Below are positions 1-54,066 of a stretch of 64,000 nucleotides of DNA, piece by piece (position 1 is the first letter of the stretch; each line of letters begins with the position of its first letter). The notes under the pieces are model-generated. The model made no database searches, had not been told where the DNA came from, and was given only the letters and a program-made list of their open reading frames with translations. This DNA comes from Schmidtea polychroa (lineage: Eukaryota), in contig CM097886.1 of NCBI GenBank assembly GCA_044892525.1, positions 92,194,001 to 92,258,000 on the forward strand, given 5' to 3'. Both the position numbers and the translations under genes were made by a program.

Positions 1-205
1 TTGCATAAAGTATGACATTTTCAAAATGTTACATACAAATATTAAAAAATAATAAATAAATAATATTTCTACAAAAATTATAACTTAAGGGGAAATTTTT
101 TCAACATAATAAAAATTATAAATGATTTTCATCAAACTTACAAAATCAAGATCATAGATATCATTTAAAAAGACAAATGTTTATTATATTTTAAAAATGA
201 TATAA
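1..205 (-). repeat. Left arm of perfect inverted repeat flanking the RING gene (runs off the window start); equals the 3' flank of the gene
   Basis: 1-205 is the exact reverse complement of 1867-2071 when read base by base (pos 1 pairs with 2071, 205 with 1867, first mismatch at 206/1866). Confidence 0.95.
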
Positions 206-415
206 CTTAGTTCCAAGCATTTTTTGGTTTAACAGATTTGACAAGCTTATTCAAATTTTATATATTTCTCTTTGAATTGTTTAGATAAAATGGATGAATT
301 CGACTCTTTCTAACATTCGTATGCTCTTGACCAATTTCTCATAATTTTTAAATGGAATTCCTTTGTTTATAATATTTTCTATATCCAACATATATGTTAT
401 AAAAGATTTAATCAT

Positions 416-1846
416 TTACCGAAATTCGTAGAAATATGTCAATTGTTCATATTCGTAATTCATATTAAAATTTTCTCTAAATAAATCTACGCAGTACTCC
501 ATGCATTTTAGTTTAGAAAACTTTCCACTCGAGAACCGCAAATATTCGTAATTGACCATTTCATTAAATTGACGTTTCACATCCAAAATCAAATTATTAT
601 TAAGATTTGTATTTTGCAATGTTTCCAATTCCGACAACAATGCATTTAACAAATCAAATAACTTTTTATTTGACTGACAAACCGAAAAGAAATTGTCGTA
701 ATGACTTTTCATTTCTTGGCAATCGTCAATGGCAAAAAACCTTTCGATTTCAGTGAAATTTCTCTTTAAATACATTTCAGTTGTCTCTCTTTTGATATAA
801 TTCGTAAATGAAATGTTAATGAGAGAATTCCTGAATATATTTAGGTTAACTAATTTACATTTATCAAAAGGACAACTTCCATAAGAAATCAAATATTTTC
901 TAGTGCATGACAAACACAATTTGTGAGCACAATTCGGAAATCCAGAATAAATATTGCAATTGATTGATTGGCTACAAATTAAGTATTTATCAACGTCTGA
1001 TTCGTTGATATTTGGTTGGATCGCTTGAAATATTGATTTATTGTTTCTCACTAAATTAATCGACTTGCTGATAATGAATTGAACAATTTCTTTCAAACTT
1101 TTGAAATCGTTTTCAAAATTATTCAATAATTTTTCAAGTTTGTTTCTAGGAGGAAAATTTCCAATATAAATTTCAACAGGTTCCGAAAATTCATGAATTG
1201 ACAAATTAAGATTCAATGAATTTATACTTTTTAGATTTTTTATTAATAAATGGTCTTCTTCATTGGAATATTTCTTTGAATTTGATAGAAACAATTCACC
1301 TAAACGGTCCGTGGTAACTTTTATTGATATTTCGGTAGTCACTGATTGAAATAGTCTGTCGAATAATTGTAATTCGGTTTCAGAAACTTCAGTGTTACTT
1401 TTATCAATCCATTTTTTAATTAATTTTATGAGATTTTTCAAATTCATCATGACGGTGTTAGTAGTCTCTGTAATCTTCAAAAGGCTGTCAGTAATATCCT
1501 GATCTAATTTCTTCAGAAATGAATCATAGTTAAATTTTATTACCAATTCATTGTAGTCTATCAAAGGTAAATTATTAGGATTTACTGATAAATCTTTGAT
1601 ATATTTAATCACTCTTTGATCTAGAGGACACAAGGTTTTTTTAGTTTTCAATGTCATATATTGCTCAAGAGAGTCACAGTTAAATAATAATTGCAAAGTA
1701 CAATCTTTACAAAATGAATGACCACATGGAATAAATGTTACGAAATCATTATTTTCGAGACTATCGTAACATATGTAGCACTCGTCATCTTCTGTGACAG
1801 TTTTCATTTCCTTATTTAACTCTTCATTTGAATTTGTTTTTTTCAT
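416..1846 (-). CDS. Intronless RING-finger protein (putative E3 ligase) with an N-terminal C3HC4-type RING and a second degenerate RING
   Basis: 476-codon ORF from ATG at 1846 (the track start at 1849 is TTG). RING1 is CYIC...PCGHSFCKDC...LCPLD; RING2 is CSQSINC...PNCAHKLCLSC...SCPFD; helical segments follow each. Confidence 0.8.
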   Translation of the reverse strand: MKKTNSNEELNKEMKTVTEDDECYICYDSLENNDFVTFIPCGHSFCKDCTLQLLFNCDSLEQYMTLKTKKTLCPLDQRVIKYIKDLSVNPNNLPLIDYNELVIKFNYDSFLKKLDQDITDSLLKITETTNTVMMNLKNLIKLIKKWIDKSNTEVSETELQLFDRLFQSVTTEISIKVTTDRLGELFLSNSKKYSNEEDHLLIKNLKSINSLNLNLSIHEFSEPVEIYIGNFPPRNKLEKLLNNFENDFKSLKEIVQFIISKSINLVRNNKSIFQAIQPNINESDVDKYLICSQSINCNIYSGFPNCAHKLCLSCTRKYLISYGSCPFDKCKLVNLNIFRNSLINISFTNYIKRETTEMYLKRNFTEIERFFAIDDCQEMKSHYDNFFSVCQSNKKLFDLLNALLSELETLQNTNLNNNLILDVKRQFNEMVNYEYLRFSSGKFSKLKCMEYCVDLFRENFNMNYEYEQLTYFYEFR

Positions 1847-1866
1847 CAAAATAATATTATTATATT

Positions 1867-2071
1867 TTATATCATTTTTAAAATATAATAAACATTTGTC
1901 TTTTTAAATGATATCTATGATCTTGATTTTGTAAGTTTGATGAAAATCATTTATAATTTTTATTATGTTGAAAAAATTTCCCCTTAAGTTATAATTTTTG
2001 TAGAAATATTATTTATTTATTATTTTTTAATATTTGTATGTAACATTTTGAAAATGTCATACTTTATGCAA
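1867..2071 (+). repeat. Right arm of the inverted repeat (second copy of the RING-gene 3' flank, placed just upstream of the ATG)
   Basis: Exact reverse complement of 1-205; begins about 20 nt upstream of the RING ATG. Confidence 0.95.
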
Positions 2072-2989
2072 TTGTTTATTATATATTTATGTCTCATAAA
2101 TCCTTTAATAATTAATATTTTGGAAAGATATGAATTGTTTTAATATTCAAAATGAAATTTCTACACCTTTAAACATTTTGTAATTAGAATAAAATATCAA
2201 ATTGTTTATTTATTCGACTTAGTTGTGTTTTATACAAATTGCAATTATTTCAGTGATTTTTTATTATTTATTTTCCTTAAAATTTAAATATGAAATAATT
2301 TATAACAATTGAGGAAAGGTGATAGACTCTAAGATTATATTTTCCCATCAAAACCGATCCCCATTAAATCCAACCGACTATATCCCTTTAAAAATTGTAT
2401 ATTCCCATTTTAACCGATCTCTCACAAAATATTTCTACCCCTTTAAACATCAATATCTAACCAACTATATCCCTTGAGGTTATATCCTTTTTAATTCAGT
2501 CAATCCTCTTAAAGTCCTTAGAGAATTCTTCAAAAATATTAATATTCATTAACTGTTACAGACACCAAACATTCTTCCATTGAAATAATTTAGTATCTAT
2601 ATAATAAGAGCACACTAAAAGATTAAAATTCACTAAAATTTACACAACTATTTACCATCAAATATATAATTAAAGATGATATATATTGATTGATCATAAT
2701 TCTTCGACGATTCAACCAATCATTTTCATGCAATAATAGCAAACTGAATTTCAGTATATTCTACAATAATTTTCAAGTAAATTTGAAGTCCTTGATAAAG
2801 TTAACTGGTTTCTTAGCTTATGATTTTTAAAAGTTCATCAATGTGTAAATGGAAATATTCTTAGAAAATTATTTTAAAAATTATTTAGTCAAATTCAATA
2901 TCATTACAAAGTCAATTATAAATTACTGTATATCAATTTTTTGACCGATAATTTTTGCTTTAATTCAAAGATTTACCGTGCTTTTTTAG

Positions 2990-3370
2990 TGTAGACCCTT
3001 TTAGTATTGAAAATCTTAGGACTAGGAGACCCACCATAGTTTAATTAGAAAAATATTTGCTCTTTTAGTGATAGACGGATTTTCTATTGAATATTCCAGT
3101 ACCAAGGAGACTAACCTTAATTTACTTGACAAAATCGATGCTTTTTTATTGTAGACTGATATTTGTATTGAAAATATCCTGAGACCTTAAATTACTATTA
3201 TTTCCATATTGAAGAACGCCTTTTTATGTTGAATATATCCTGAGACCTTAAATTACCATGGTTTTTTTGATATTTGTATTGAAAATCCCAGGACAGGGGA
3301 GACCCCCTCACTATAGTGTGAAAAATCTTGGCCTTTTTTCTATAGAGCCTATCTAAATGTATTGAAAAAA
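2990..3370. repeat. Degenerate ~80-bp tandem repeat array (about 5 units)
   Basis: TAGAC at 2992, 3072, 3152; TATTGAA at 3005, 3085, 3166, 3277, 3360; GGAGAC/GAGACC at 3025, 3106, 3181, 3298. Confidence 0.7.
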
Positions 3371-3531
3371 ACATGTGTAGCCCACGGCAACAATTATGTA
3401 ATCAAAAAATGTAAGTTGCAACAAAAGTTGCAAAAATGTTTATTCCCCCCCGCTACCCGGGGGAGTAATTGTTGCGGGGATGCCCTAACTACCTACTCTA
3501 ATAATATTTTGAAAAATAATAATAATTTTAT

Positions 3532-3636
3532 TGACTCATCGGATGACTCATATGATCCTGAGAATGACCTTGAATGAGTCATGCGATGAAGGGGCATATG
3601 GTCTCGCGGGCACCAATCCATCTAGTTATATATAGA
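3532..3636 (+). promoter_or_regulatory. Putative Pol II promoter of RING copy 2: three AP-1 sites, CCAAT box, TATA box
   Basis: TGACTCA 3532-3538 and 3544-3550, TGAGTCA 3575-3581, CCAAT 3613-3617, TATATATAGA 3627-3636; ATG at 3804. Confidence 0.55.
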
Positions 3637-3803
3637 TATACACGAATCGAAAGAATTAAAATATTGTGTAATTCAAATACAGGAAATATTTAAATTTTTA
3701 ATGAATTTTAATACATTTATTAAATTAATAAACAATTATATTTTATTTTTTGTAATTAAAATATAATTGTTTGAATAAAACAAAATATAATAATATTATT
3801 TTG

Positions 3804-4290
3804 ATGAAAAAAACAAATTCAAATGAAGAGTTAAATAAGGAAATGAAAACTGTCACAGAAGATGACGAGTGCTACATATGTTACGATAGTCTCGAAAATA
3901 ATGATTTCATAACATTTATTCCATGTGGTCATTCATTTTGTAAAGATTGTACTTTGCAATTATTATTTAACTGTGACTCTCTTGAGCCATACATGACATT
4001 GAAAACTCAAAGACCCTTGTGTCCTCTAGAGCAAAGAGTGATTACATTAATCACCGATAGTGATTGTTGTTATATCTTTACTTAAATGTAATTTGGATAT
4101 AGAAAATATTATAAACAAATGTATTCCATATAAAGACCATGAAATATTGATTATGAGAATTGAAATGTTAGAAAAATGTTTTAGGCATCCTTTTAATCTA
4201 AAAGATTTAAATAATAATATTGAAAAACTGAATGAATTTGTCAAATCTGTCAAACCGAAAATGCAAGGAAATAAGTTATCAATTTTAAAA
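3804..4290 (+). pseudogene. Second RING-gene copy, internally deleted (RING1 joined out of frame to the C-terminal tail)
   Basis: 3804-4044 is near-identical to the first ~80 codons of 416-1846. From ~4060 the sequence (LDIENIINKCIPYKDHE...VKSVKPK) matches the degenerate coding-like tail at 206-415 of copy 1; the intervening ~1.2 kb is missing. Confidence 0.85.
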
Positions 4291-4475
4291 TATAATAAAT
4301 ATTTGTATTTTTACATGATATTTATATATAATTTATATAATTATTATTTATATTTTATAATTTTTATTATGTTGATAAAATTTTCTCAATATATTTGTAT
4401 AATTTATTCAATATATTCTCAAAATATTTGTAGAAATATTATTTATTTTTCACTTTTTAATATTTGCATGTGATG
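4273..4475 (+). repeat. Diverged third copy of the RING-gene 3' flank
   Basis: AAGTTATCAATTTTAAAATATAATAAATATTTG...TTATAATTTTTATTATGTTG...TTTGTAGAAATATTATTTATTT aligns with 1867-2045. Confidence 0.8.
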
Positions 4476-4562
4476 GTTTGAACATATATTTATATATTTT
4501 TCAAAAAATAATATCACAGTAAAAGTTTATGAAACATTCAGAAATGCACTTATTGAGTATTT

Positions 4563-5130
4563 TGTGCAACTGGGTGTTACTGTGTGACTCCTTGTTGTCC
4601 TTTTATTAAGTAAATTGAACAACCCAACACAATTATATTTATTCGAAATTATCACAATTACACTTTTCTTCTATTACACATATTAATAAACAATTCCTCT
4701 TTATACAACTTTAAACAAGTTTATTTTCTCTACACACTTTTCAACTGGAATCTGAAACTTGTGCATAGATAAATCTTCCAACGGGACATGTTGCTTTCTG
4801 GTACGCTGAATTAAGAACGATTTAGTTAGCACTAAATTAAATTCTCCTTTGCTTCCTTTCTATTCTATCTTCAACCTACTGGCAATTATGTTCACTTGCA
4901 GGTCGCTTTTTTACCCGTCTCGTAATTTATTATCTCCTTTTCAAATTAATTTGGATACTTTTCCCCGGGTTTGCTCTTACCGATCTAATTTATTTGGGCA
5001 ATTTATTCATTTTTGAGAGTTTTCCCCAATTTAATTACTCGTCGGCTAATTCGATTGCCTCTAAGTAATTTGATTGACAACTCGGGTCCTCTCACACTGC
5101 TCCGATTTTCTATTAGGTAAATAATTTTTA
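4563..5130 (-). mobile_element. Probable solo-LTR fragment of the purine-rich LTR family
   Basis: Minus strand is purine-rich and ends ...AATAAAAGGACAACAAGGAGTCACACAG...TTGCACA, similar to the ends of 25252-26209 and 34950-35260; no TSD found. Confidence 0.4.
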
Positions 5131-5572
5131 ATTAATTCTAGTTTTTTGTAATTATTTCCTTATTTTTCAGTAAAAGAAGTTATTAAATAAAGGTTCTTTG
5201 TGGGAAAAAAACAAAGAACTTTTATTTAAAAGGTAGTTGAACTAGTGGGTATGAGCATTTTAATATCGCACTAAAATGATATTGATTTTTGAGTATCAGT
5301 AACATCCTGGTACTGAAAATATTATTATTTGAAATCACTTAGACACATGTATTTTATTAAAAATGGTTTATTGGTGCACAAAATATTCAATAAAAAAATT
5401 AATTTGTTTTAGAAATGGCCAGGCTACCTGCTAAATCACTGATCTGTCAGAAATAGTGGATTGAAAATTTTCCACTTGAACGAGGAATTCATAGTAAACT
5501 CAAGTCACCAGCTTTCGCTCATTACGTCCCTGCCCTTTGCACACTCCGACCGTGGCTACTACCGATTGAGTA

Positions 5573-5680
5573 AAATAATTTTCGACTATAACAAGACTAT
5601 AGTCGAAAATTATTTCATTTGTATTAAATATATTATTTGCATCAAAAGGCTTAAATTATCATTTAATTGTTTAAAATTCC
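5573..5680. repeat. Perfect 18-bp-stem hairpin; collapsed copy of the hammerhead-like palindromic family
   Basis: AAATAATTTTCGACTATA (5573-5590), 7-nt loop, TATAGTCGAAAATTATTT (5598-5615), followed by the family flank ...AAAAGGCTTAAATTATCATTTAATTGTTT. Confidence 0.8.
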
Positions 5681-7475
5681 ATTTTATACTAAACCCAAGA
5701 GAATTGTCAAAATGATTAGTTTTCCTTAACACTTAAACCACTGAAATAAAATTACGAGGACAAACCAAACTCAACCAAACTGACCGTTACAAGCAAACCA
5801 TGTGCTTGATCGTTTTCAAACCTGCAAATTGTGGTGTGTAGTTTTACAGACGAAAAACGGTCTTACTGTTTGGAAGGCGAAAATATGTATATATAATCCT
5901 TTTTAAAATTGTGTAAAAAGACAGAATTAATTTAAGAAAATAATTATTAGAAAAATTGATAGTGATTCCTGAGAATCAATTTTAATGAAGTATAATTGGT
6001 AATAAACGTTGGTACATGAATTTAATTTTTCAATAATTTAAAAATAATATAATTAATGCATTATTTAAAATCAAAATAGTAACTAAAAATTTAAATTTTA
6101 AAGTTAAATTTTTTTGTAATTAATTATAATCCCATAGGACTGGATTTATTGAGTGTTTTACTGTTGATTTACATAACATCAAATATTTTAATAATATCGC
6201 TCAATTTTGATTTTTATATCGACGTCTGATTAATTGTGAAAATAACTTATTTATAGTTTTGAAATTTCGAATTATTTATTTTCATTATATTTTTAATAAA
6301 TATTATTTGTTTAAATTTTTATAGTTTTTTTTGTTTTTAGTGTACCTTTTATAAAGATTATTTTATAATTGGTTCTCAAAATAAATTTTAATTAAAATTA
6401 ATATAAATTATTAGTAAAATCATTTTTAAATTTTATTTACATTTTTTTCTTTTATAATTTCATTTATCTTCCTTTAGATTTTGACTATAAATCAATATTT
6501 TTTCCTAATTAAGTCAAATAATATTACTTATTTAATCATCCTATAAATTATATTATTACATAAATATAAATATGATACTACTATCAATATTTGAAAACGA
6601 CCATCGAACATCATCAAGTTAAACCAAAAAATCTATATAGATTTTAAATTGCTTATTCAAATAAAACTTAATTTTTAGAAACTATAAACTAAATAATTTA
6701 TAAATTCATAAATGTTTTTATTAATCGATTCAGTCAACAAGTTCTGGGTCAAACTCTGTGTGTATTACATGACACTGAAGTGGCTAATGTAAACACAATC
6801 ATACACACTATTACATAATCAGAGAGTTATACATAACTCATCAGTATGTGAATTGTGTGTAATATTGCATAATGTTAATATTTTGTTTTCATGAATTGAT
6901 CGCCATTTATAATTGTAATGAATATCTTAAATTTATTACGTAACGTGAGTGATTAATTGAATGTTGGCTAAAGCTGTGATGTGAGAGTTGGTGATTGAAA
7001 GTCGTTAAAAGGAGGGTAAAGTTAGTGTGAGAGTGAAAAATGGGAAAGCCTGTGAAGTGGATCAAGACCATTAAAATCTTTTATATTACTATTGTACAAC
7101 AAAAGCCCTATGAAGGCAGGATTAGGGATGCATTTAATTATAACCAAAGACTTGGACAGTGAGCAGATCTTGCGTTTAAAAAAAAATTAACTATTTGAAA
7201 TAATAAAACAAAAAAACTTACTTTGTAATTTTAAATTAATTTATTAAATTTAAAATTATTCTAAACTAAAATTTAAGCAATAAAATTTACTTAACTTTTA
7301 ATTTAAGTTTTATATTAACTTAAAATTTATTTTAGAAATTTATAATACTTTCCCTTAAAAAAAATTATTTACTTGAAACCTAATGGTTCTTTAAAATTTT
7401 AACTTTGTTAAACGCAATTAAATTCAAATATTCTTCCAACATTTATTTATTAATTACAATATTACATTCTCGAAT

Positions 7476-7804
7476 ATGAGTATTGATACTAACAAACAAG
7501 ATGAGCCAAAATATGCGATGGTATTGCCGTATTCTGAAGGATATAAAGATTTCGAAAGAAAGATAGGTAAACAGCTGGGTAAATTGAATTATAGAATTGT
7601 TTCCAAACCGTGCAAAGTACTTAGTATGTTTGTTAATAAATCTCAAACGCCGGTTGGATTGTGTTCGGATCTCGTTTATCAATTCACATGTAATGGGTGT
7701 AATGCCACATACATTGGAGAGACTTCCCATCATCTCTGTACTCGAGTTCAAGAACACTGTCGACGGAAGGGAGTGTCCAATATTAAGTATCATAATAAAG
7801 TTTG
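7476..7804 (+). mobile_element. Penelope-like element family A, 5'-truncated; linker and N-terminal half of GIY-YIG endonuclease
   Basis: VLPYSEG...LVYQFTCNGCNATYIGETSHHLCTRVQEH; frame interrupted at the LTR insertion and resumes at 14786. Confidence 0.88.
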
Positions 7805-8433
7805 TGTAATGTATTGTAATTATTTATTTTTCTTGGTTTTGTTAACCGTATGTTATAAATGTAAATTACAATTCTTCACGTCGTACGTGGCGAAGGTTTT
7901 ATTTTATGTTTGTAAAAAAACAAACTATATAGTGATAATTTACTATGGTAAATTATCACTATAGGAAAAAATTGAATTTAAAAAAATCGATAACTACAAA
8001 TTAAAAAATTATCAAAACAAGAAACAGTAAATTGGGAAATTTCAAGATCCAACAGTTATAATTCGGAAGCTCTCCCAACGACTACTCAAAGGATTAGATC
8101 AAATACTCGTATAATCTCGAACCATACACTTACTTTTTCATATCCCATTATTATTCGAACTTAAAAAGCTTACTCAAAGATTAATCACTGAAGAAAAGCT
8201 ATATTGTCAGAAGTAACCTTATATTGGTTTTTAGTTAATAAAAATTTTAAAGTGTTATAATAATTGTTGTATATTAATTTGATTTTCTTTTTTATTGTAT
8301 TTTTCGCATCAAAACAAAACACAGCCTGCACCCCGATTGTCCCGCCACATTTGTTTTTATCGGTGACTCTTTCTGGCTCATCAATTTTCCTGATTGCATT
8401 AAATAACAATAAAAATAACATTATTACTTAACA
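7805..8433 (+). repeat. 5' LTR
   Basis: TGTAATG...TAACA; I counted 5 transitions versus the 3' LTR. Confidence 0.97.
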
Positions 8434-8633: not shown

Positions 8634-9728
8634 ATGGCTTCAAACCAGCAAAACCCGACAAACAATACACAGATACCCAACAACTATGAAAATGCTCACT
8701 CACCGGAAAACATGAACCACCTATTCAACCCAAGCACCAACAACGCAAACACACACCCAACACACGAAAGCAGTAGTTATTATTACAACCCCGAAAATTC
8801 ATCCGCGGTAAACTCAATACTAAACCCCAAGGCAAACATCCCAAATTTTTTCACAAACGAAAATGGGACACCACAAAAATGGCTAGAATTTGCCAAATTA
8901 ACATTAAGCCTATCAGGCATTAAATCATCAAGAACAGTTTGTTCTCACATAATCGCTGCCCTTCCCAGCAACATCCTGAACGAGATAGCCGATAGAATAG
9001 AGGAAATATCAAAGGACGACAACCCTTTCGAAAATTTATACAACACTTTAATAAATCGGAACAAAGTAAACAGACGAGAACTACTCGAATCCTGCTTGAA
9101 AGATATCCAATTGGGTAATGACAAACCGTCCGAATTTCTGGGAAATCTAAAGACAAAACTCGAATACTTGCAACCAAAAATAACAAGTGCCGGGTCAAAA
9201 GAGTTCATCAAAGACCTTTTCATGCGCGCAATGCCACCTGAAATACGACGGATTCTAGCTGCCAGCAACTGTACAGACCTCGATACTCTGGCAAACATAG
9301 CAGACAAAATCAACGACGAAATATACCCAACAATATGTAGAACTTACCAAAACAAAAATTATTTTAAGAGCAACGAAAACAAACCTGTACACAATAGCTC
9401 AGAAACTACAGAAACGAACAAACTCCTCTCAACTCTGGTAACAAAATTCGACGAAATAATTATTGAAAACAAAAATCTTAGAAAAGACATAACCGAATTA
9501 CAAAGAAGAGAATCAAGGAGAACGCAATATTAAGAAAACAGACAAAATTATCCCAGACAAAATACACGATCTGGCAGCCGTAACAGCTTCGACAGAAACA
9601 AAACATGGAACAACCCTAATAAAGGCACAAACCAAAACTTTTGTTACTACCACAATAAATTTGGGAATCAAGCATACAAATGCAACAAACCCTGCACCTT
9701 CGACAAAGAAGAGTCGGGAAACATATAA
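8634..9728 (+). CDS. gag: Gag (one internal in-frame TAA at 9531-9533)
   Basis: The frame continues past the TAA to CYYHNKFGNQAYKCNKPC (CHCC knuckle) and ends SGNI* at 9728. Confidence 0.88.
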
Positions 9729-9779
9729 AGTCACCAATGATAGCACCGACATTAGGTGACAGCCAAACTTTCACGGTGC
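9716..9779 (+). promoter_or_regulatory. -1 ribosomal frameshift signal: G GGA AAC heptamer plus H-type pseudoknot
   Basis: GGGAAAC at 9716-9722 in gag frame; pol is in the -1 frame; 7-nt spacer; stem 1 GTCACCAATG 9730-9739 with CATT-A-GGTGAC 9750-9760; stem 2 GCACCG 9743-9748 with CGGTGC 9774-9779. Confidence 0.8.
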
Positions 9780-12490
9780 ATAGCAATGGCCTCAATTTTC
9801 TTGTTGATTCAGGTTCAATAATTTCATTATTACCGAATTACCTATACAAAAACACAAAAACCGAAACCGCAAATTTGTGCGCAGCAAACGGCAGCCCAAT
9901 TAAAACGTTCGGAAAGCAAAACATTAACATCACCATCAACAACACACAATACAATTGGCAATTCACTATCTCTGAAGTCAAACAAGCTATTTTAGGAGCA
10001 GATTTCCTTTCAAACTTCAATCTACTAGTCGACTGTAAGAATGGAAAAGTCATACCAAACAATTCAAATAACACACACCACAAAAATAAACAGTCTAAAA
10101 AACAAATCAATTGTGACATCGGAGTAATAACAGCCCAAATAGGTGAAGCAAAAACAAATAAAACAGAAACAAACTGGCACATACCTAACGAAATCGCAAA
10201 ACTGATACGAAATGCAGCAAATATAACTAAAAAATTTGAGATAAACAACAACACAAAATGCATAACCGAACACATAATAATTAGCAACGGAAACCCAGTC
10301 CATGCAAAAGTCAGACAGTTAGACAAAAATAAACTCGAAATAACTAAGAAAATATTCGACGAACTACTAGAAAACCAAATCGTCAAACACTCAAACTCAA
10401 ACTGGTCATCGGCCCTCATGCTTAAAGAAAAGGCAAACTGCGAATGGCGAGCCTGTGGAGACTACAGAGCATTAAACAATATCACAACAGCAGACAAATA
10501 CCCAATCCCAATAATAAACGATATCATCAACAGATTTAACAAACCCAAAATTTTCAGCAAAATAGATTTAGAAAAAGCCTATCATCAAATTCCTGTCAGA
10601 ACTGAAGACATAAAGAAAACAGCAATCATCACACCCATAGGACTGTTCGAGTATAAAAAAATGCCTTTCGGATTAAAAAATGCTGCAGCCACTTTCCAAC
10701 GCTTCATGGACCAAATATTACGAAATCAACAGAACACAGTCGCATACCTTGACGACATCCTGATAGCATCAGCAAACAAAACAGAACATATACAAAATAT
10801 TAAAAATGTGTTCGATATATTAAGCAAACATGAGCTAAAAATTAACATAAAAAAATGTGAATTTTTGAAAACAGAAATAAAATTCCTGGGACACATGTTA
10901 AACGAAAATGGAACAAGACCTTTAGACGACAAAATCAAAGCGATCAAAAATTACCCTCTACCCAAAACTACAAAAGAGCTAAGACGTTTCCTTGGCATGA
11001 TCAATTTCTATCACAAATACATACCAAGATGTAGTGAAATGCTAGCCCCTCTCAATGAACTGAACAAAATAAAGAGAAACATCAAAATAAATTGGAACGA
11101 AAAACTAATAACATCGTTCGAACAGGCAAAAGAAAATCTGAAAAATGCAAGCATCCTAAACTATTCCAACCAAGAATTACCATACATAGTCAACACAGAT
11201 TGTTCGGGAGTAGCAATGGGCGGAACGATATTCCAAGAAGAAAATAACGAAAAAAGACCAATAGCTTTCTTCTCAAAGAAACTCAAAACCCACCAAATGA
11301 GATACTCTACTTTTGACAGGGAGTTATTAGCGTTACATGATACAATCAGACATTTCCAATACCTATTGGAAGGAAAAGATTTCGAAGTGTATACCGACCA
11401 TAAACCCTTAATAAACGCAATGAACATGAAAAACCCTTCACCGAGACAAATAAGACAATTAAACTATATTTCACAATTTAATTGCAAAATAAAATACATA
11501 GCAGGTTCAGCTAACATAAGTGCAGATGCATTATCAAGAATAGAAACTGACATAAATGCACTTAACATAACACCCATAATAGAGTTAGAAAAGTTAAAAA
11601 CTAAACAAAAAGAAACAACAATCGAAACTCCAAGGATGAATTCACTCCACCTGGAAGAAATAGACGGCATATGGTACGACACTTCAAATTACAATAACAA
11701 AAGGATCGTAGTACCAGCAGAACTGCGCGATCAATACCTCCAAAAATATCACAACATCTACCATCCGGGAAACAAAGCCACATACGAACTTCTGCATACC
11801 AAAGTTGTTTGGCCTTATATGAGAAGGGACGTAAAAACGTTCGTAAAAAATTGCCCACAATGTCAAAAGAATAAAATAACAACAAAACAATTCAAAACAA
11901 CAATTGTAGAATTCCCAAGTTCTGAACCGTTCGAAACGATACATATCGACATAGTCGGCCCTCTACCTCCAAATAATAAACACAAGTACTTATTAACTAT
12001 AATAGACCGAAAAACAAATTGGTTCGAAGCCATTCCCATAAAGGAAATATCAGCAGCAAAAATATGCAGTAAATTAGAATTAAACTGGTTCGCCCGGTAT
12101 GGCTGCCCAAAGACAATAATCAGCGATCAGGGTAGGCAATTTGAATCCGACATTTTCAAAGGACTTTGCAACAAATATAACATCAACAAAACCAGAACAA
12201 CAGCATACAATCCACAATCAAACGGAAAAGTTGAGAGATTACACCGATCATTAAAACAAGCAATCCGAACAAAAACAAATAATAACAACAACTGGTTAGA
12301 AAAATTACCAGAAATACTAATAGGATTACGAAACAACCCTTCAAGCCTAAACAACAAAAGCCCTAGCCAATCAGTTTTCGGACACAATACAAACCTACCA
12401 AACCTAAAGGACGAAAACGAAAACAAGATAAAAACAACCGCTAAAGAATCACAAATACCCATACTAAAAAGTATCCTAAAAAAAAAATAA
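9716..12490 (+). CDS. pol: Pol polyprotein (protease, RT, RNase H, integrase); C-terminal GPY/F tail frameshifted
   Basis: FLVDSGS protease, YLDDILI RT, VNTDCS RNase H, YH...H...C..C and HIDIVGP/SDQG/VERLHR integrase; VLVKKPF...YEGPY continues in another frame after the A-run near 12480. Confidence 0.96.
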   Translation, partial: GKHIKSPMIAPTLGDSQTFTVHSNGLNFLVDSGSIISLLPNYLYKNTKTETANLCAANGSPIKTFGKQNINITINNTQYNWQFTISEVKQAILGADFLSNFNLLVDCKNGKVIPNNSNNTHHKNKQSKKQINCDIGVITAQIGEAKTNKTETNWHIPNEIAKLIRNAANITKKFEINNNTKCITEHIIISNGNPVHAKVRQLDKNKLEITKKIFDELLENQIVKHSNSNWSSALMLKEKANCEWRACGDYRALNNITTADKYPIPIINDIINRFNKPKIFSKIDLEKAYHQIPVRTEDIKKTAIITPIGLFEYKKMPFGLKNAAATFQRFMDQILRNQQNTVAYLDDILIASANKTEHIQNIKNVFDILSKHELKINIKKCEFLKTEIKFLGHMLNENGTRPLDDKIKAIKNYPLPKTTKELRRFLGMINFYHKYIPRCSEMLAPLNELNKIKRNIKINWNEKLITSFEQAKENLKNASILNYSNQELPYIVNTDCSGVAMGGTIFQEENNEKRPIAFFSKKLKTHQMRYSTFDRELLALHDTIRHFQYLLEGKDFEVYTDHKPLINAMNMKNPSPRQIRQLNYISQFNCKIKYIAGSANISADALSRIETDINALNITPIIELEKLKTKQKETTIETPRMNSLHLEEIDGIWYDTSNYNNKRIVVPAELRDQYLQKYHNIYHPGNKATYELLHTKVVWPYMRRDVKTFVKNCPQCQKNKITTKQFKTTIVEFPSSEPFETIHIDIVGPLPPNNKHKYLLTIIDRKTNWFEAIPIKEISAAKICSKLELNWFARYGCPKTIISDQGRQFESDIFKGLCNKYNINKTRTTAYNPQSNGKVERLHRSLKQAIRTKTNNNNNWLEKLPEILIGLRNNPSSLNNKSPSQSVFGHNTNLPNLKDENENKIKTTAKESQIPILKSILKKK

Positions 12491-13043
12491 TAATAAAACC
12501 CAATACCAAACAGAACTAATAATAGACATGGTTTTAGTAAAGAAACCCTTCACTAGCGGATTTGAAACAAAGTACGAAGGCCCATACAAACTGTTAAATA
12601 TGTAAAAAAACGTTGGCACAATTTTAAAAGACAATAAACAAATCAAAATAAACATACGCAGATTAAAACCATATCACGAAAACAAAACACCAACTCTTAA
12701 CAATCACCACAACCTAAACCCTCAAAACAACCACCCAAAGCACAAAACACAAGAACGAACAGAAATACAGACAAACCAGAAACACATCAGATTCAGCGAA
12801 AAAGACTCAACAAAAATTTTCGACAACAACACAACAATTACACCAGAATACAAAAAGCGTTATAGCAATTGCCTCAAATAAACAACACATGCACCCACAA
12901 GATTTTGTTGTACAATTTTTATAAAGTGCTAGTTGTAAAACACAAAACATAAACTCACCTAAATCATCACAAAACACAAGAACATATTTTTTTTTGCAGT
13001 TTTATCTTATCTCTGTAAATATGTAAAGCCGTTTAAATGTTAA

Positions 13044-13646
13044 CCTCCGGTATAATTCATTCAATCTTTCATCCCAGTTCTTATGAGCCCCAGCGTATAT
13101 AAGTATACCAATCAGTGCATAAATTTCGTTTGAATTTGTATCATACCAAATACGTGCAGTGTTACTATTTATAGTGTAGAAATGCCGAGCTTTTCTATTT
13201 GTTTCGGCCACTATTACATTTATTAATGTCTCGGGAAGTATTTTTTTAAACGCGGCCAGATGAGTATTTATATTTCGAGCTGTTTCAAGAGAAATTCCTT
13301 GTTTTTCTCTCAAGATCTGAAAGTCGCGAACTCTAGTTACATTTGGTGGACTTGCCATCCATTTTCTTTTGTACTTTTTATTTTGCGCGTAATACCAAAT
13401 TCCTTCTTCTTCCACTTCAGCTTCTATATTTTGTACTTCTTGGTCTTCATCAGTTTCTATATTTTGTAGTTCTTGTTCTTCATCAGTTTCTATATTTTGC
13501 ATTTCAACAGCAGCTTCATCTGTTGCTATATCGAGATCAGAAAAGTCACTATCAAAGTTATCATTTGCTAGCTCTTCCTCATCAGAATCGATTATACTTT
13601 CGAAAAGATTTCGAATATCCTGGCTAGTTTGTCTTTTTCGGGCCAT
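13044..13646 (-). pseudogene. Truncated piggyBac transposase (acidic N-terminus and start of the DDD core)
   Basis: ATG at 13646; ...LPETLINVIVAETNRKA...TNSNEIYALIGILIYAG...; homology stops at ERLNELY. Probable 5' UTR intron GTGAG...TTTTCTAG around 13677-13728. Confidence 0.8.
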
Positions 13647-42074: not shown

Positions 42075-45068
42075 TTAAATAATAAAATTACATATCATGA
42101 ATCTTGAATCGTAATTTTTAAATATTTTATTTATTTACAATCACTTAACAAAACAAAAGATCAACTTTGATTACGATAAAAATTAAAAATCTCATTTTTT
42201 TATTTACTATTTTTTGAAAGCTATAAAGAAATTATTTATATATACACACAATTACACAAGTTATTAAATAAAAAAGAAAGTTCATTAAAATATGTAAAAG
42301 ATATAAGATTTATTTCTTTGATGAAAGAATATAAAAGTAAGTGTCTTTTAAAACTTGTCATGTCTAATTTAAAATTGTATCTCATGAAGAGCTGGTGCCA
42401 AAATGTTCAAGAAAAAACGAAAGATTGAATTTAATGAATTTATTCAAAAATAAAATTTAATAATTATTTATTTATGAAAAACAAATTTATTTTCTCCAAT
42501 CAAATTACATTGAAAAAGTTAAATTAATATTTTAATTAATGCAATTTCAAATCTCTATGAATTAATTTTTGGTTTATTTAAATTTAAATATTTTAAATAT
42601 CCATCGCATAATTCGTTTAAAACTTCAAATAAGAAACGGAAATAATCCACTAATGCATCAGTATAAAGATTTCAAATAAAATAATTTAAAAGAATTAACC
42701 AATCAAAATCCACCAAATTTATTTTTAATAATTAATAAATGAAAGAAAAAGTTTAGTTTAAGATTTTTAACCACAGAAATTCTTTAAAATACGTAAATTT
42801 TGAATAAACTCATTTTTTTATTATTTATTCATATTTTAGTTTTCATTTTTTAAAAAAAATAATTTTAAATGATTTAATTAAAGAAAATTTGAGAAAAAAT
42901 GTAATATGCTGTTTCAATTCCAGTTTTGGATTTGCATCAACGAAAAAAATCCTAATCTGTTAAGGAAATATGCGGTTGGTATGATAGATGCACAAAACCT
43001 TTGTTGTATAGGGAAATTGGCTTCTGTCAAATCATAAGTTTCGTCTTTATTTGTACATAAATACTAGGGTTTTTCCAAACCTTTTGTTCAAATCTGTCAT
43101 CGAAAATATTTCTAGCTCTATCTCAAGTAAATAAAACTTTGCAAGCTTAACTATATCCATTTAATTTCAAAAAAAGGTGAACATTTTAAAAATTGTTTAC
43201 AACAATAATGAAAAAGGTCGTACCTTGAATCAGTGCTGTAGCTGTTAAAATCTAAACAACTTTGTAACAATACATTAGCAATAACAGTTTCAATTTTTCA
43301 AAAATAAAAATACAAAAATAGCAAAGAAATATTGTGTAAAATTACAATATTCGTGGGAATGTCTTGCTGAAAGTCTCAAAGGTCCTGGTTTTATTGGTCG
43401 GACGGGTTTCCTAACATTTGAATAATGAGATTCCTCAATTAATTTTTCAATAAGATAAATAATTTTCAATAATCTAAATTCTAAATGATCTAATTTTCCA
43501 TAATTTTTAGTATTTACGAAATATACGTTAAAAAAAATCCAGCAGATAGAAAATTTTTTTTCTTATAATATTTCTTTCCTCGTTATCTTGTGACCCGATA
43601 ACTATAGAGTTGCTGATCTTATCTATCGACTCCCACCATCGTATTATTGTACTCAAAAATTAAAATTTAAGTTGCTAAAACTGAACTTGGGTTTGGTCAT
43701 TTTTGCATGTATAGTATGCCCATACTGAGCTTGGGACTGGACGTTAAGGGATTAATAAAAAAATAGAATATCTTTTGAATGAGGGCCTTAAAAGATTTCG
43801 ATTTAAAAATAAGTTGGATTTCCGAACGTTTATAAATATTTTTTATATTCTAAAATAATAAGTTAAATTATTTTTTCAGAGAAATTAACAATGTTAGAAA
43901 AACCAAAACAAAAAACAATATTAGAGATTATGAGATTAATTTTAATAAATTTAATATAGAACAAATTTTACTTTTCTTATTGTTACAAATATCATAAATT
44001 CTTTCAAAATCTCTAATCTGAACTCATTTCTAATTTTTATGTCATTTATTCTTAAGCCTTCAAATATTATTAACCACTTACATTGGAATTAGATGCTATG
44101 CGCATCAATCGCTATCTGTACCAAATGTCGATATGACATGTATAACACGTCATGTGATATTTACTAAGTTTGTAGTTCCATTAACAAGTTATATACTGTA
44201 TAATACCAGAATTACTTTTATAAGTTAAAGTAATATGCCAACTCAATGCAAATTGCTTTGAACGGTTTCCCCACTCTAATAATATACTTATCAAATCCAA
44301 GGAGTCAGCTCGATATGTGTATGAGCTACATTTGTGACTCTTAAAATTACATCAATTCGTCAACCTCTTTTGTCAACGTCTCCTGCTTTCTTTTAATTTT
44401 GAAATGAGCATTTGTAACTTCCACGGAGATAAAGTTTAAAAGGTTTTTTTAAAATGTATTTCTATCTATATTTGAAGTTATATTTTATTCATTTTGTCAA
44501 AATTATAAATTTACACTCAAATTTGTTGCGTTAAAGATTCAATAAAAAAGATTTAATAATAATTATTTACCATTTTTAATATTTAATTGTATAACAAGTG
44601 AATTTCTTTTTTTTCTTTTTTTCTTTTTTTTTAACTAGAATTAATGCAACAGGTCTTGCCACGAGGTTTAAAATTAAAATTTTCTGCTAATCATGCCGAG
44701 TTTTTCAAAGATTTTCAATGAATACTTTAATTACAAAAGTTAATAAATCTGGTACTCTAATTTTAATAGGTTAATTAATAATAATATTTCATGAATAAAA
44801 AAAAATAAATAAATAAAAATAATATAAAAATAATATAATTAATTAATTAAATTACCTTAAACAAAAATAAAATTAATAATTTTTTTAAATTTAATTAATT
44901 TTAAAATTTATTTATAATTTTTTTTTCATTGACAACGGCGGTTTATTTTGTATTTATTACCAATAATCTGCTTTTTTATCATTAACCAAAAAACTGAAGA
45001 ATGTTATAAAGTAATAAAGGTTTTTTGACATAAATATAAATTTGTATAAAAAAGAACAAAACCTTTAC

Positions 45069-45614
45069 CTTGGCAAATAACGATGATGACGGATGATCAA
45101 AAAATAACCACAAGCGATATCTTAATCGTTTTAATCCTCTGCAATATTTTACCAAATTTTTCATAGAGTCAATATCTTCAAAACAATCTTTAAATAAAGT
45201 CTTTTTTGTTCGTTTTTCTTCATCATATCTCATGTAAGCCGACATGCAACACGGACCGATAAATGATTCGTCGATTCCCCAGAAAATTAATTCTTTTCGA
45301 ACAAACGGTCCACAGATACTATTCGGTAAATGCAATTCACCAGTTCGATAAAAGTCTAAAACGAAACGAAAAATTTCCGGATCTCGATCAAAATAATAAA
45401 TTGGCGCATCAGACGACATCGACGTTGACGAACAAACCACTCCTCCATGGTCGTGGGAAGATGAGCAGATTTTGGATGACTGTGAAAACTGTTTCTCATG
45501 TTTAATGGCGATCATGTAAAGTCTACTGTCGGGAACGCGATATAAAGTCGATCGACGAGTGACAAAAATTCTTCCTCCAATGCAAAGAGTCACCGTGTCG
45601 GTTGCATTGATCAT
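45069..45614 (-). CDS. Shaw: First coding exon of a Shaw/Kv3-type voltage-gated potassium channel (T1/BTB domain to pre-S1)
   Basis: ATG 45614; YYFDRDPEIFRFVLDFYRTGELHLPNSICGPFVRKELIFWGIDESFIGPCC and RLWLFFDHPSSSLFAK; donor AAG|GTAAAG at 45069/45068, phase 0. Confidence 0.85.
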
Positions 45615-50687: not shown

Positions 50688-50771
50688 AGCTATCGCCGCC
50701 ATATCATGGAGAAGGTGACGTTCAACAGTGGATTCAGAAAGTGAAGCTAGTGGCAACAATTCAAAAAAATC

Positions 50772-51357
50772 GTGGAATCAATAATTCCTTTATATCTAGA
50801 TGGACCAGCTTTTGCAGTATATCAGCATTTGAGCGCTGAAGACAAAGACAACGCATTGAAGATCGAACATGCCTTAATCGATGTCTATTCGATAGATATG
50901 TTCCAAGCATATGACCGATTCCGTGAAAGAAAGTGGTGCAATGAGCCAGTAGATGTCTATTTGAATGATCTCAAAAACTTAGCATCTCTGGCCAAGATAG
51001 ATAACGAGATTATAATTAAAAGCGCATTCATAATGGGTTTGCCAGCAGTGTCGTCACAACAGTTACGATCCAATGCCAATATTCAGCAGATGTCTCTTGT
51101 TGAGGTCTTGAAACAGTCTCGTGTCTTAGTAAACTGTGACAATATGGAACTGTGTTCGTGGAAAAACAAAACAAGAAAAAAATGCTCGTATTGCGGAAAG
51201 AATGGCCATCTAGAAGAACATTGTTTCAAGAAACAAGGAAGGAAGTGTTGGCTATGTGCAGAAGAGGGCCACATTGCATAGGAGTGTGCCAGGAATTCAG
51301 AGTCGGAAAATGCCAAAGTAGTAACGCGTGCGCCAGCGTCTACTCTAGCACGAATAT
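50772..51357 (+). pseudogene. gag: gag with two CCHC knuckles, interrupted by a stop
   Basis: CSYCGKNGHLEEHC and CWLCAEEGHIA*EC. Confidence 0.8.
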
Positions 51358-51359
51358 AA

Positions 51360-54066
51360 TGGCGCTGCAGTTTATTTCAGTCATAATCAATGGGGAGTCC
51401 GTGAAAGCATTGATCGACTCGGGGTGTTCCAAATCAGTTGTGTCAGCCAGAATTGCGAAGAAACGATTTATACGGAATGGGAGTATCAAGACTGCGGATG
51501 GATCACTAGTCAAGTGTATGCGTGATGTGAAAGTTCAGCTGATTGTTGGTGGTAGTTTATTGAATGTTAATTGTGTTTCGTTGATGAAACTACCACTTAA
51601 TGTTGAAATGATTTTAGGAATGGACGTAATAGAGATGCTGGGAGGTCTTAAAATTGACAAGACCAATGTATCTTTTCCAGGTATTGCAAACGTATCGTGC
51701 GTGTCTGAGAATCAGTTAAATGAGAATTTGCGAATTGAAGATGGTGAATTTTCGGCAGCATTCAGTGACGGCAAGTGGACCGTGAAGTGGAAATGGAAAG
51801 CAGAACCAGCTGTACTATTGAATAGAATTTCAAATTATAAAAAATTGATCGAGGGCTGCAGCACAAGTTTGACATGGAGGTTGACAAGAAGGATGGCTAA
51901 TTCCAACGAAAGACGTCGTGTATGGAAAAATTCCGTTATTGGCAGTAGAGCAAGCAAACAAAGGAAAAGTTCGTCCAGTAATGGATTTTCGAGAACTAAA
52001 TAAATATGTTAGTAGCCATACTGGACAAAGTGATGTATGTGGCGAATCATTAAGGCGATGGCGAATGATGGGCGAACAGGTTATTTTAATTGATCTTAAA
52101 AATGCTTATCTTCAGATACATGTTGATGAATACCCATGGGAGCACCAAAGGGTTAGTTACAAAGGGAACGGATACTTTCTAACGAGACTCGGTTTTGGTT
52201 TAAATGTGGCTCCGAAAATAATATCAACAATATTACGGAATGTATTGAGTTTAAGAGAAGATATCAGAAAAGCAACGGATAGTTATATTGATGACATTAT
52301 TGTCAACCAGTCAAAAATAAACGTCAATGAAGTAATAAGCCATTTAGGAGCATACGGGCTAATTACTAAGCCACTGGAAGAGTATGATGATGCACGAGTG
52401 CTAAGTCTCTAGCTTCAAACAAGTATTAACGGTCGTACGTGGCATCGTGGAAACATTCTGCCACACAGTGCGTTTACAACTATGTCAAGAAGGGAGTTAT
52501 TTTCCCTCTACGGTCAACTCGTTTGGCACTATCCCGTTGCTAGATGGTTAAGAGTAGCAAGTAGCTATATAAAACGACAAAGTGCTGGAAATAAGTGGGA
52601 TGATACGATTGGAAAAATCGCGTTAAAATGGTTAACTAAATGATGTCTCATGTGAAAGAGAGCGATCCCGTGACTGGTGAGTGGCACGTAAACAAGGACG
52701 GATCTACACATGTCTGGTGCGATGCGAGCAATCTGGCATTAGGAGTTGTATTAGAAATATCAGGAAAAATTGTCGAAGATTCATCATGGATGAGGAAGAA
52801 AAACGATTTTGCTCATATAAACCTTGCACAGTTAGACGCTGTGATAAAGGTAATTAACTTAGCCATCAGCTGGGAAAGAAGCAACTTAGTTGTAGTAACA
52901 GATTCCGCTACCGTCAGAAGTTGAATAGATTCAGTTTTAACGGATACTGCCAGAATCCGAACTCATGGAATTACTGAGATGCTAGTCCAAAGACGTCTGC
53001 AGATCATTTGTGAATTACGAAAAAGCTATGACTTAACGATCTCGGTTGAGTTTGTCCCGACAGATAAAAACAAAGCAGATGCACTCACAAGAGTCAGTAA
53101 TAAATGTCTAACATGGGTTAAATCGTGTGTCGAACAAACTGCAAGCACCGTTGCTGTTGTGAGCCAAGTGTTACGAGAAAGTCATAGACAGCACCATTTC
53201 GGTGCCAAGAAGACGTTGTATTTTGCAAAGCAACTTTGCCCAGACGTTACACTTGAGGATGTAAAGGCTATAATTAGTGAATGTTCAGAATGTCAATCTA
53301 TCGATCCGGCGCCCGTAAAATGGGAGCATGGAGAGTTAAACGTTAAGGATACGCGAAAGAGACTGGCTATGGATGTTACACACTATCTAAGTAAGCTTTA
53401 TTTAACTATGATTGATTGTGACGAGGTTCCCCTGATGAGCTATTGATTGATAATGCGACATCATTTCGGTCCACACAAATGAAAGTACTGTGTCGCAAAT
53501 GGGGTGTGAAATGTGGGTTTCGATGTGCTTATCGGCCATCAGGAAACGGCATAACAAAACGAAACCATCGTACAATTAAACTCAAGGCAGCAAAAACCAA
53601 CAAGGGAATATTGGAAATGGTATATTGGTATAACCTAGCACCCAATGACAAGTGCGGAACGCCGCCGTCTTCATCCGTGTTTTTATATTGCTGGAAAGGA
53701 GTTGGAGGTTGTTATACAGAAGAGAAGACACAGGACACGTCGTTCCAAGTTGGCGATGCAGTTTACGTTAAACCACCAAACGCGAAGTGCACATCGACAT
53801 GGGGTGAAGGTATTGTAACGAAGGTAAATTCATCGACTAATTTCGACATCAACGGGATTCCGCGACACTATTCCGACATACGACCGGCTGTCAACGAATT
53901 GTCAGTGGAGAACAATGACGATGATGGATTAACAGACGTAGATAATCCTATACTCAACTCACTGCGCCGAGATGAACGTAGAGGCAGGACGAAAAGACCT
54001 CGATATCTTGATGATTTTGAAACCAGTTTTATCGAGAACGAAGATGAAAATCACGCGGAGATGTAA
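51360..54066 (+). pseudogene. pol: pol (PR, RT, RH, IN) broken by several stops and frameshifts
   Basis: ALIDSGCS, IDLKNAYLQI, YIDDII, WCDAS, HRQHH...CSEC, DNATSF; the last ORF ends 5 nt inside the 3' LTR. Confidence 0.88.

What the first reader, a model, noticed from the sequence alone, without database searches (positions are those of the whole stretch)
1..2071. Long RING-finger ORF bracketed by a perfect >=205-bp inverted repeat of its own 3' flank
Seen: 1-205 and 1867-2071 are exact reverse complements, and the repeat is the gene's own 3' flank (a diverged third copy follows gene copy 2 at 4273-4475). The right arm starts ~20 nt upstream of the ATG, where homology to the upstream region of copy 2 stops. 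A 12-bp hairpin (TTATTATATTTT 1857-1868 / AAAATATAATAA 1880-1891) sits on the junction. Inference: this is a collapsed head-to-head palindromic amplification, an invertible cassette, or an IR-bounded mobile or viral unit carrying an E3 ligase. It is the least explained structure in the window.
Basis: partly seen in the sequence, partly recalled or inferred. Interest (0 to 1): 0.72.

Follow-up and report, generated by a model that had tools for sequence, protein, structure and literature searches.

The report
Inverted-duplication scar around decayed RING gene
A broken copy of a large family of zinc-finger (RING) genes sits between two mirror-image copies of its own downstream DNA, most likely the scar of one local copying accident that flipped the gene and removed its upstream region, a known kind of rearrangement rather than a mobile element.

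Summary
The repeat is real and longer than the window shows: 438 bp perfect (1867-2304 against contig C2:92193768-92194205), then a ~0.77-kb deletion in the right arm, then a second block of 403 bp with 6 substitutions. Each arm has one native and one new junction (2- and 4-nt microhomology). That fits a one-off inversion with inverted duplication and deletion (copy pattern 1-0-1-2-1), probably followed by arm-to-arm conversion. It is not a transposon: there is no target-site duplication, the inner arm occurs only here and beside two paralogues, and 1 of 30 family loci has such a bracket. The ORF is a decayed copy: premature stop (476 vs 546 aa), frameshift, an otherwise invariant RING cysteine lost, upstream region gone. 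It belongs to an intronless double-RING family (77 matches) that often forms near-identical inverted pairs (5 of 6 tested). The outer block is debris of a gene-less Polinton-ended palindrome family that this scan found before on other DNA. The 12-bp hairpin abuts the junction more often than chance (0.06% of simulated joins) and may record snap-back priming. Read-level support for the junction was not obtained.

The parts
1..205 (-). Left inner arm (in-window part): native 3' flank of the RING gene; continues left of the window to C2:92193768 (438 bp perfect) and, through ~0.77 kb present only on this side, to C2:92192564
180..191 (-). 12-mer in the 3' flank (16-27 nt after the family stop) that is identical to the 12-mer just upstream of the ATG: a direct repeat in gene sense
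207..415 (-). Decayed last ~70 codons of the gene (behind the premature stop, with a 1-bp frameshift near 309); family stop codon at 207-209
416..1846 (-). 476-aa ORF, truncated double-RING protein (RING 1 at aa 23-77; RING 2 at aa 288-328 with Cys288 changed to Tyr)
1847..1868 (-). All that is left of the native upstream region (20 nt plus 2 nt shared with the right arm); holds the left stem of the hairpin (1857-1868)
1867..2304 (+). Right inner arm, 438 bp, 100% identical to the left arm; new junction at 1866/1867 with 2-nt microhomology; right stem of the hairpin at 1880-1891
2305..2332 (+). Diverged edge of the inner arm; here the right arm keeps bases shared with paralogue C3b that the left arm has lost; ~0.77-kb deletion follows
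2333..2736 (+). Outer block of the inverted repeat (6 substitutions in 403); inner-arm piece of a gene-less Polinton-ended palindromic element
2737..3497 (.). Rest of that old element remnant: collinear inner piece to ~2924, then outer piece in reverse orientation ending in a Polinton-type terminus at 3497
3668..4053 (+). Copy 2, 5' part: native upstream region (93% to C3) and first ~83 codons (10 differences in 270 from copy 1)
4070..4485 (+). 3' end and flank of an older paralogue (71-73% identical) fused to copy 2

Best explanation
The structure is likely the scar of a single local rearrangement in which a RING gene was inverted in place, its upstream region was deleted and about 1.6 kb of its 3' flank was duplicated in mirror orientation, after which the inner 438 bp were probably kept identical by gene conversion between the arms. 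Inferred ancestral order on the + strand: X - upstream - gene - flank F - repeat R - Y; present order (shown): X - R' - F' - gene' - 20 nt - F - R - Y. Inferred mechanism: a broken or stalled nascent end next to the stop codon folded back on 2 nt, copied 10 nt, and so came to end in the 12-mer that also lies just upstream of the ATG; it switched there, copied gene, F and R, and rejoined X through 4 nt of microhomology (microhomology-mediated template switching). The gene is most likely a pseudogene and the structure has no predicted function.
For: Shown: (1) Left arm inner side is native (stop codon into flank exactly as in both C3 paralogues); its outer side is a new junction, where the match to the repeat family flips orientation at C2:92192564 with a 4-nt overlap. 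(2) Right arm inner side is new (2-nt microhomology at 1867-1868); its outer side runs on collinearly with the repeat family past 2736 to ~2924. (3) Native upstream DNA, seen in both C3 copies and at 3668-3783, is missing from copy 1. (4) Divergences fall in a consistent order: copy 1 vs C3 18/270, copy 1 vs copy 2 10/270, outer block 6/403, inner block 0/438 (Fisher p=0.012 for inner vs outer). (5) Both arms carry private changes (3 left-derived, 2 right-derived, 1 unpolarised of 6). (6) A stem of 12 bp or more starts at the join in 56 of 89,117 simulated joins. (7) 5 of 6 inverted family pairs tested show gene-centred islands of 93.5-99.5% identity. (8) Decay: premature stop, frameshift, Cys288 lost in 1 of 27 loci aligned. 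Known class: deletion plus inverted duplication separated by copy-neutral DNA, 1-0-1-2-1 (PMC10766186, section 6 read); fold-back inverted duplications by microhomology at breaks (PMC11724301, abstract).
Against: No unrearranged allele or outgroup locus was seen, so the ancestral order is reconstructed. A two-step history (palindrome, then central deletion) gives the same sequence. The hairpin test was designed after seeing the hairpin and used copy 2's upstream region as a stand-in. Conversion rests on 0/438 vs 6/403, a modest contrast, and the 30 diverged bases at the edge of the inner block are not explained by it. Copy 1 vs C3 dN/dS is 0.44 over codons 1-455, so the gene was under constraint for part of its history and a truncated one-RING product is not excluded. 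Raw or long reads across the junctions were not examined.
Confidence: 0.65

Rival explanations
1. Collapsed head-to-head palindrome: upstream-gene-flank-repeat was first duplicated as a full inverted pair, and a later deletion removed both upstream regions and the whole right-hand coding sequence, with the 12-bp stem holding the two break sites together.
For: Head-to-head near-identical pairs exist in this family (C1:83.46-83.50 Mb 98.9% over 3.6 kb; C1:191.15-191.19 Mb 99.5% over 2.3 kb). PMC10766186 argues that such patterns arise by secondary erosion of palindromes (passages and section 6 read). The junction asymmetry is the same as in the best explanation.
Against: Needs two events instead of one, and the deletion must end 1 nt behind the stop codon and 20 nt before the ATG. 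No remnant of a second coding sequence lies between 1867 and 3667.
Confidence: 0.22
2. Composite mobile unit: the 6.4 kb between two Polinton-type termini (C2:92191110 and window 3497) is an old gene-less palindromic element that captured the RING gene and whose arm-copying made the inverted repeat.
For: The two termini face each other around the gene. In the reconstructed ancestor the gene sits between two collinear pieces of one element arm. In 2 of 4 large elements examined the host flank is mirrored beyond the termini.
Against: The 6 bp outside the two termini do not match, whereas E1, C1:36.94 Mb and C1:191.1 Mb elements have exact 6-bp duplications. The two outer pieces are only 73% alike, older than the copy 1/C3 split. 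The C3 paralogues have no such element within 1.5 kb; it was found there at the window locus and at 2 of the other 28 loci. No second copy of the unit.
Confidence: 0.07
3. Assembly artefact: the right arm is an echo of the left arm.
For: 438 bp are identical; junction-spanning reads were not examined.
Against: The right arm holds paralogue-like bases absent from the left arm, its own ~0.77-kb deletion and private substitutions, and it continues into sequence the left arm lacks. An echo would not create these.
Confidence: 0.03
4. Functional cassette: the arms are a regulated inversion switch, or a read-through transcript folds into a 438-bp hairpin that yields small RNAs against the 3' ends of the C3 paralogues.
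For: Perfect arms permit homologous flipping; the arm is 94% identical to the C3 flanks.
Against: No recombinase or site seen in the window's long ORFs; a flip leaves the adjacent 438 bp the same; the native upstream region is gone; unique in the family.
Confidence: 0.03

Closest known systems
Inverted duplication with deletion, pattern 1-0-1-2-1 (Brewer et al. 2024, PMC10766186; passages and section 6 read)
   Same: Deleted segment, copy-neutral middle, inverted duplicate, junctions with little homology.
   Different: Kilobase scale in an invertebrate-type genome and apparently fixed in the assembly; both junctions are microhomology joins, whereas the Factor 8 example has one junction in long repeats; no parental allele to compare.
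Inversions with inverted duplications at breakpoints, staggered-break model (Ranz et al. 2007, PMC1885836; abstract read)
   Same: An inverted segment flanked by an inverted duplicate of non-repetitive sequence; 17 of 29 Drosophila inversions show this.
   Different: Here the inversion is only 1.66 kb, one side is a deletion, and the junction carries a fold-back signature.
Fold-back templated inverted duplications at double-strand breaks in yeast (Yu et al. 2024, PMC11724301; abstract read)
   Same: Fold-back on microhomology next to a break, then template switching.
   Different: Those duplications are mostly 5-34 bp; here the snap-back would be 10 nt followed by about 3.3 kb of copying.
Palindrome arms kept alike by arm-to-arm gene conversion (PMC8327919, PMC8981503; search listing and start of abstract only)
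   Same: Near-perfect arm identity with patchy decline outward.
   Different: Arms here are under 2 kb and non-coding; the gene is in the spacer, so conversion does not protect it.
Pack-MULE-type or Polinton/Maverick cargo elements (PMC6431247; passages read)
   Same: A host gene between inverted repeats; Polinton-type ends nearby.
   Different: The inner repeat is the gene's own flank, single locus, no target-site duplication.

Membership tests
Inverted duplication with deletion (1-0-1-2-1) | Duplicated segment in inverted orientation, separated by single-copy DNA | tested here: met
Inverted duplication with deletion (1-0-1-2-1) | Adjacent deletion | tested here: met
   Native upstream region present in C3 copies and copy 2, absent from copy 1 beyond 20 nt; size of the deletion unknown
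Inverted duplication with deletion (1-0-1-2-1) | Two new junctions with short or no homology | tested here: met
   2 nt at 1867-1868; 4 nt at C2:92192564, the latter read against related repeat copies
Inverted duplication with deletion (1-0-1-2-1) | Unrearranged parental allele for comparison | not testable with these tools
   No relatives held for this genome; no second copy in the assembly
TIR transposon carrying a host gene (Pack-type) | Target-site duplication | tested here: not met
   None at the inner-arm ends, the outer-block ends or the two Polinton-type termini
TIR transposon carrying a host gene (Pack-type) | Terminal repeats belong to a dispersed family | tested here: not met
   A 260-bp part of the inner arm matches only the two arms and the two C3 paralogue flanks, 4 of 4 candidates scored; only the outer block is repeat-derived
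TIR transposon carrying a host gene (Pack-type) | Same unit at other sites with other flanks | tested here: not met
   1 of 30 loci examined (of 77 matches) has the bracket
Polinton/Maverick-derived element (for C2:92191110 to window 3497) | Matching termini of the type found on coding Polintons in this genome | tested here: met
   Same terminal motif as the polymerase- and integrase-bearing elements at E1 and C1:191.1 Mb
Polinton/Maverick-derived element (for C2:92191110 to window 3497) | 6-bp target-site duplication (length recalled from the literature; seen here in 3 other elements) | tested here: not met
Polinton/Maverick-derived element (for C2:92191110 to window 3497) | Polymerase and integrase genes | tested here: not met
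   In the window part the only ORF of 150 aa or more before 7400 is the RING ORF; the part left of the window is repeat remnant by alignment, ORFs not listed there
RING finger proteins (C3HC4-like) | Zinc-ligand pattern | tested here: met
   PF13923, PF13639, PF00097 above cut-off for RING 1; RING 2 ligands invariant in 34 of 34 rows of alignment A1 but broken in this copy
RING finger proteins (C3HC4-like) | Ubiquitin-ligase activity | not testable with these tools
   Inferred from the domain only
Programmed invertible cassette | Recombinase and both orientations present | not tested
   No recombinase among the window's long ORFs; orientations in reads not examined

The most novel reading that the evidence does not exclude
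The gene-less Polinton-ended palindromes of this genome capture or mirror neighbouring host DNA, and this locus is a relic in which one of them took in a double-RING gene and generated the inverted duplication, so that these elements help drive the spread and inverted pairing of an unnamed 70-plus-member RING family.
Probability: 0.1. Interest if true: 0.7.

Novelty: new member of a known kind. Interest (0 to 1): 0.3.

Why it matters
As read here it is a small, unusually legible natural example of a germ-line inversion with inverted duplication and deletion, in which both junctions, the likely priming hairpin and later homogenisation can be read, and it shows one way a member of a fast-turnover gene family dies (loss of the upstream region). 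It does not reveal a new element. The more valuable by-product is the gene family itself: intronless, double-RING, about 500-560 aa, at least 77 matches in this genome, with only unnamed relatives found and no whole-protein structural match.

Tried and rejected
TIR transposon, viral cassette and common-repeat readings of the inner arm: rejected. Word-based homolog search with the intact paralogue found nothing; the full HMMER search found 40 unnamed relatives at 23-43% identity, the 10 looked up all singletons without names. Atlas hits were generic viral RING clusters at scores of 0.91 or less with low recognition: no evidence of viral origin. Foldseek against PDB gave no match at E<=0.001; PDB sequence hits were to RING domains and two designed coiled coils. 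Idea that a Polinton end caused the inverted pair at C1:191.1 Mb: rejected, the Polinton is a later insertion with a 6-bp duplication and the arm continues behind it. Idea that the two outer element pieces around the locus are recent mirror copies: rejected, 73% identity. Sequencing-run search: 7 of 16 listed rows hold some of the stretch, 6 hold half or more, 3 studies, one may be the source; not junction-specific, so not used; no RNA holder listed. Rfam found nothing in 3340-8000 at E<=0.01. Literature searches listed no paper on this gene family or on such palindromes in planarians; the RING list in the supplement of PMC8807557 was not opened and may contain family members.

Full report
Setting. 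The window is G000:C2:92194001-92258000 of a 781-Mb, AT-rich animal genome. Earlier notes of this scan call it a probable flatworm; I did not test that. Positions left of the window are given as contig coordinates.

Observation. 1-205 and 1867-2071 are exact reverse complements. With the neighbouring contig DNA the perfect run is 438 bp, 1867-2304 against C2:92193768-92194205. About 30 diverged bases follow; then the right arm lacks ~0.77 kb that the left arm has; then a second block aligns, C2:92192564-92192974 against 2333-2736, with 6 substitutions in 403 bases and an 8-bp (AT)n difference. The duplicated segment was therefore about 1.6 kb. A 260-bp part of the inner arm matches only the two arms and the flanks of two paralogues on C3 (4 of 4 candidates scored), so it is not a dispersed repeat.

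The gene. The ORF 416-1846 (minus) gives 476 aa with an N-terminal RING. A six-frame search gave 77 matches, mostly single open frames of 500-560 aa (lower bound). The two closest copies (C3, 86% protein identity, 1 nucleotide apart over the compared coding region) encode 546 aa. Against them copy 1 has a premature stop at 416-418, a 1-bp frameshift near 309, and only 20 nt of its native upstream region. In an alignment of 27 loci with ORFs over 450 aa (3 of 30 dropped as shorter; 2 rows are duplicates on an unplaced contig; P0003 repeats L033) copy 1 alone has lost Cys288 of the second RING and alone lacks the C-terminal 47-100 residues. The same cysteine is invariant in the 34 rows of A1. 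dN/dS against C3 is 0.44 for codons 1-455 and 1.0 for codons 456-476, so the lineage was constrained for part of the time. The predicted structure of the intact paralogue (pLDDT 75.6, pTM 0.76) is RING, long helices, RING, helical bundle, with no whole-protein match in PDB. Relatives elsewhere are unnamed (40 hits; 10 looked up). E3 ligase activity is inferred from the domain only. Copy 2 is a chimera: native upstream region and ~83 codons close to copy 1 (3668-4053), fused to the 3' end of an older paralogue (4070-4485, 71-73%).

What the outer block is. 2331-2924 and C2:92192564-92193619 match a family of gene-less giant palindromes (arms about 7.6-10 kb, mostly 99.4-99.95% identical in their inner parts, spacer 0.8-1 kb in three of the four). 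They share their terminal motif with coding Polintons in the genome, and 3 elements show exact 6-bp target duplications, a fourth an ambiguous palindromic one. This family was reported several times before by this scan; I had found its ends and duplications myself before that look-up. Two such termini face each other around the locus (C2:92191110 and 3497), but their flanks do not match and the pieces behind them are 73% alike.

The key pattern. The left arm is native on its inner side: stop codon, one base, then flank, as in both C3 copies. Its outer end is a new junction: the match to the repeat family flips from an outer-arm piece in + orientation to an inner-arm piece in minus orientation, with a 4-nt overlap. 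The right arm is the reverse: its inner end (1866/1867) is new, with 2 nt shared, and its outer end runs on collinearly with the repeat family to ~2924. One native and one new junction per arm is what an inversion with duplication of one flank gives: ancestral X-U-gene-F-R-Y becomes X-R'-F'-gene'-F-R-Y with U lost. In this reconstruction X and R are collinear pieces of one old element arm with the gene between them, which is economical but inferred. The copy pattern 1-0-1-2-1 is a described class (PMC10766186, section 6 read); inversions with inverted duplications are common in Drosophila (PMC1885836, abstract).

The hairpin. The 12-mer occurs in gene sense both 11-22 nt before the ATG and 16-27 nt after the stop (the C3 copy has one mismatch upstream). 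The inner 2 bp of the stem are the junction microhomology. A nascent end at the stop-side break that folds back on 2 nt and copies 10 nt would end in exactly that 12-mer and could land upstream of the ATG; this would also explain why both breakpoints hug the coding sequence. In 89,117 simulated joins between the 3' region and the upstream/5' region, 56 (0.06%) had a stem of 12 bp or more starting at the join; the test is post hoc. Fold-back by microhomology at breaks is documented in yeast (PMC11724301, abstract). The step is inferred, not shown.

Order of events and conversion. Differences: copy 1 vs C3 18/270; copy 1 vs copy 2 10/270; outer block 6/403; inner block 0/438. So copy 2's 5' part was shared with copy 1 while the latter still had its upstream region, the inversion came later, and the inner block is younger-looking than the outer (Fisher p=0.012), as conversion between arms would give. 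The family is prone to this: 5 of 6 inverted pairs tested have gene-centred islands of 93.5-99.5% identity 3-36 kb apart. Of 30 loci examined with 1.5-kb flanks (30 of 77 matches), only this one is bracketed by its own flank; two others show unrelated 62-84 bp inverted matches.

Artefact. Reads were not examined across the junctions. The right arm keeps paralogue-like bases that the left arm lost, has its own deletion and private substitutions, and continues into sequence the left arm lacks, which an assembly echo would not produce.

Verdict. A real but ordinary rearrangement scar around a decayed gene copy: one-step template-switch inversion 0.65, collapsed palindrome 0.22, Polinton-ended composite 0.07, artefact 0.03, functional cassette 0.03. 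New member of a known kind; interest 0.3. Papers: PMC10766186 passages and section 6; PMC11724301 and PMC1885836 abstracts; PMC8807557 and PMC6431247 passages; PMC8327919 and PMC8981503 listing only. The 6-bp duplication as a Polinton hallmark is recalled, not found in the passages read.

Noticed in passing
genome-wide; examples L033-L061: Unnamed family of intronless double-RING ORFs of about 500-560 aa, at least 77 matches, in tandem arrays (C3:12.0 Mb) and inverted pairs; second RING is the best conserved part; only unnamed relatives elsewhere.
   Followed up: partly
C2:110.13 Mb, C2:110.87 Mb, C1:83.46 Mb, C1:36.94 Mb, C1:191.1 Mb: Inverted gene pairs with 93.5-99.5% identity limited to the gene and short flanks, 3-36 kb apart; three have a Polinton or a Polinton-ended palindrome in the spacer.
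   Followed up: partly
L063 and L066 regions (C2:183.36 Mb, C2:44.93 Mb): In 2 of 4 gene-less giant palindromes the mirror symmetry runs 1.5-3 kb past the element ends into flanking DNA (a Polinton ATPase-like ORF in one, a pogo-like transposase ORF in the other; names by resemblance), so the flank is duplicated in inverted form.
   Followed up: partly
C3:27724579-27729273 and 27739980-27744643: The two intact paralogues lie in a 4.7-kb direct duplication, 98.5% identical, 15.4 kb apart.
   Followed up: partly
window 416-480: The last ~21 codons before the premature stop are only 77% identical to C3 while neighbouring blocks are 95-99%: a divergent patch, possibly conversion from another paralogue.
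   Followed up: no
window 5410-5570: GC-richer stretch (46%) that resembles the 3' part of 18S rRNA (recalled); Rfam gave no hit at E<=0.01, so unconfirmed.
   Followed up: partly
window 8634-12490 and 50751-54066: Two gypsy-type LTR retrotransposon bodies; the first has intact gag-like and pol ORFs (RT, RNase H, integrase by Pfam), the second is broken into pieces (not scanned).
   Followed up: no
window 13002-13646 (-) and 44982-45614 (-): piggyBac-type transposase fragment (PF13843) and a BTB_2 domain exon, probably of a voltage-gated potassium channel.
   Followed up: no
C2:89503501-89514539 (L068-L069): A Polinton polymerase gene mirrored in a palindrome of at least 5.2 kb per arm (97.7%) centred between two facing termini.
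   Followed up: no
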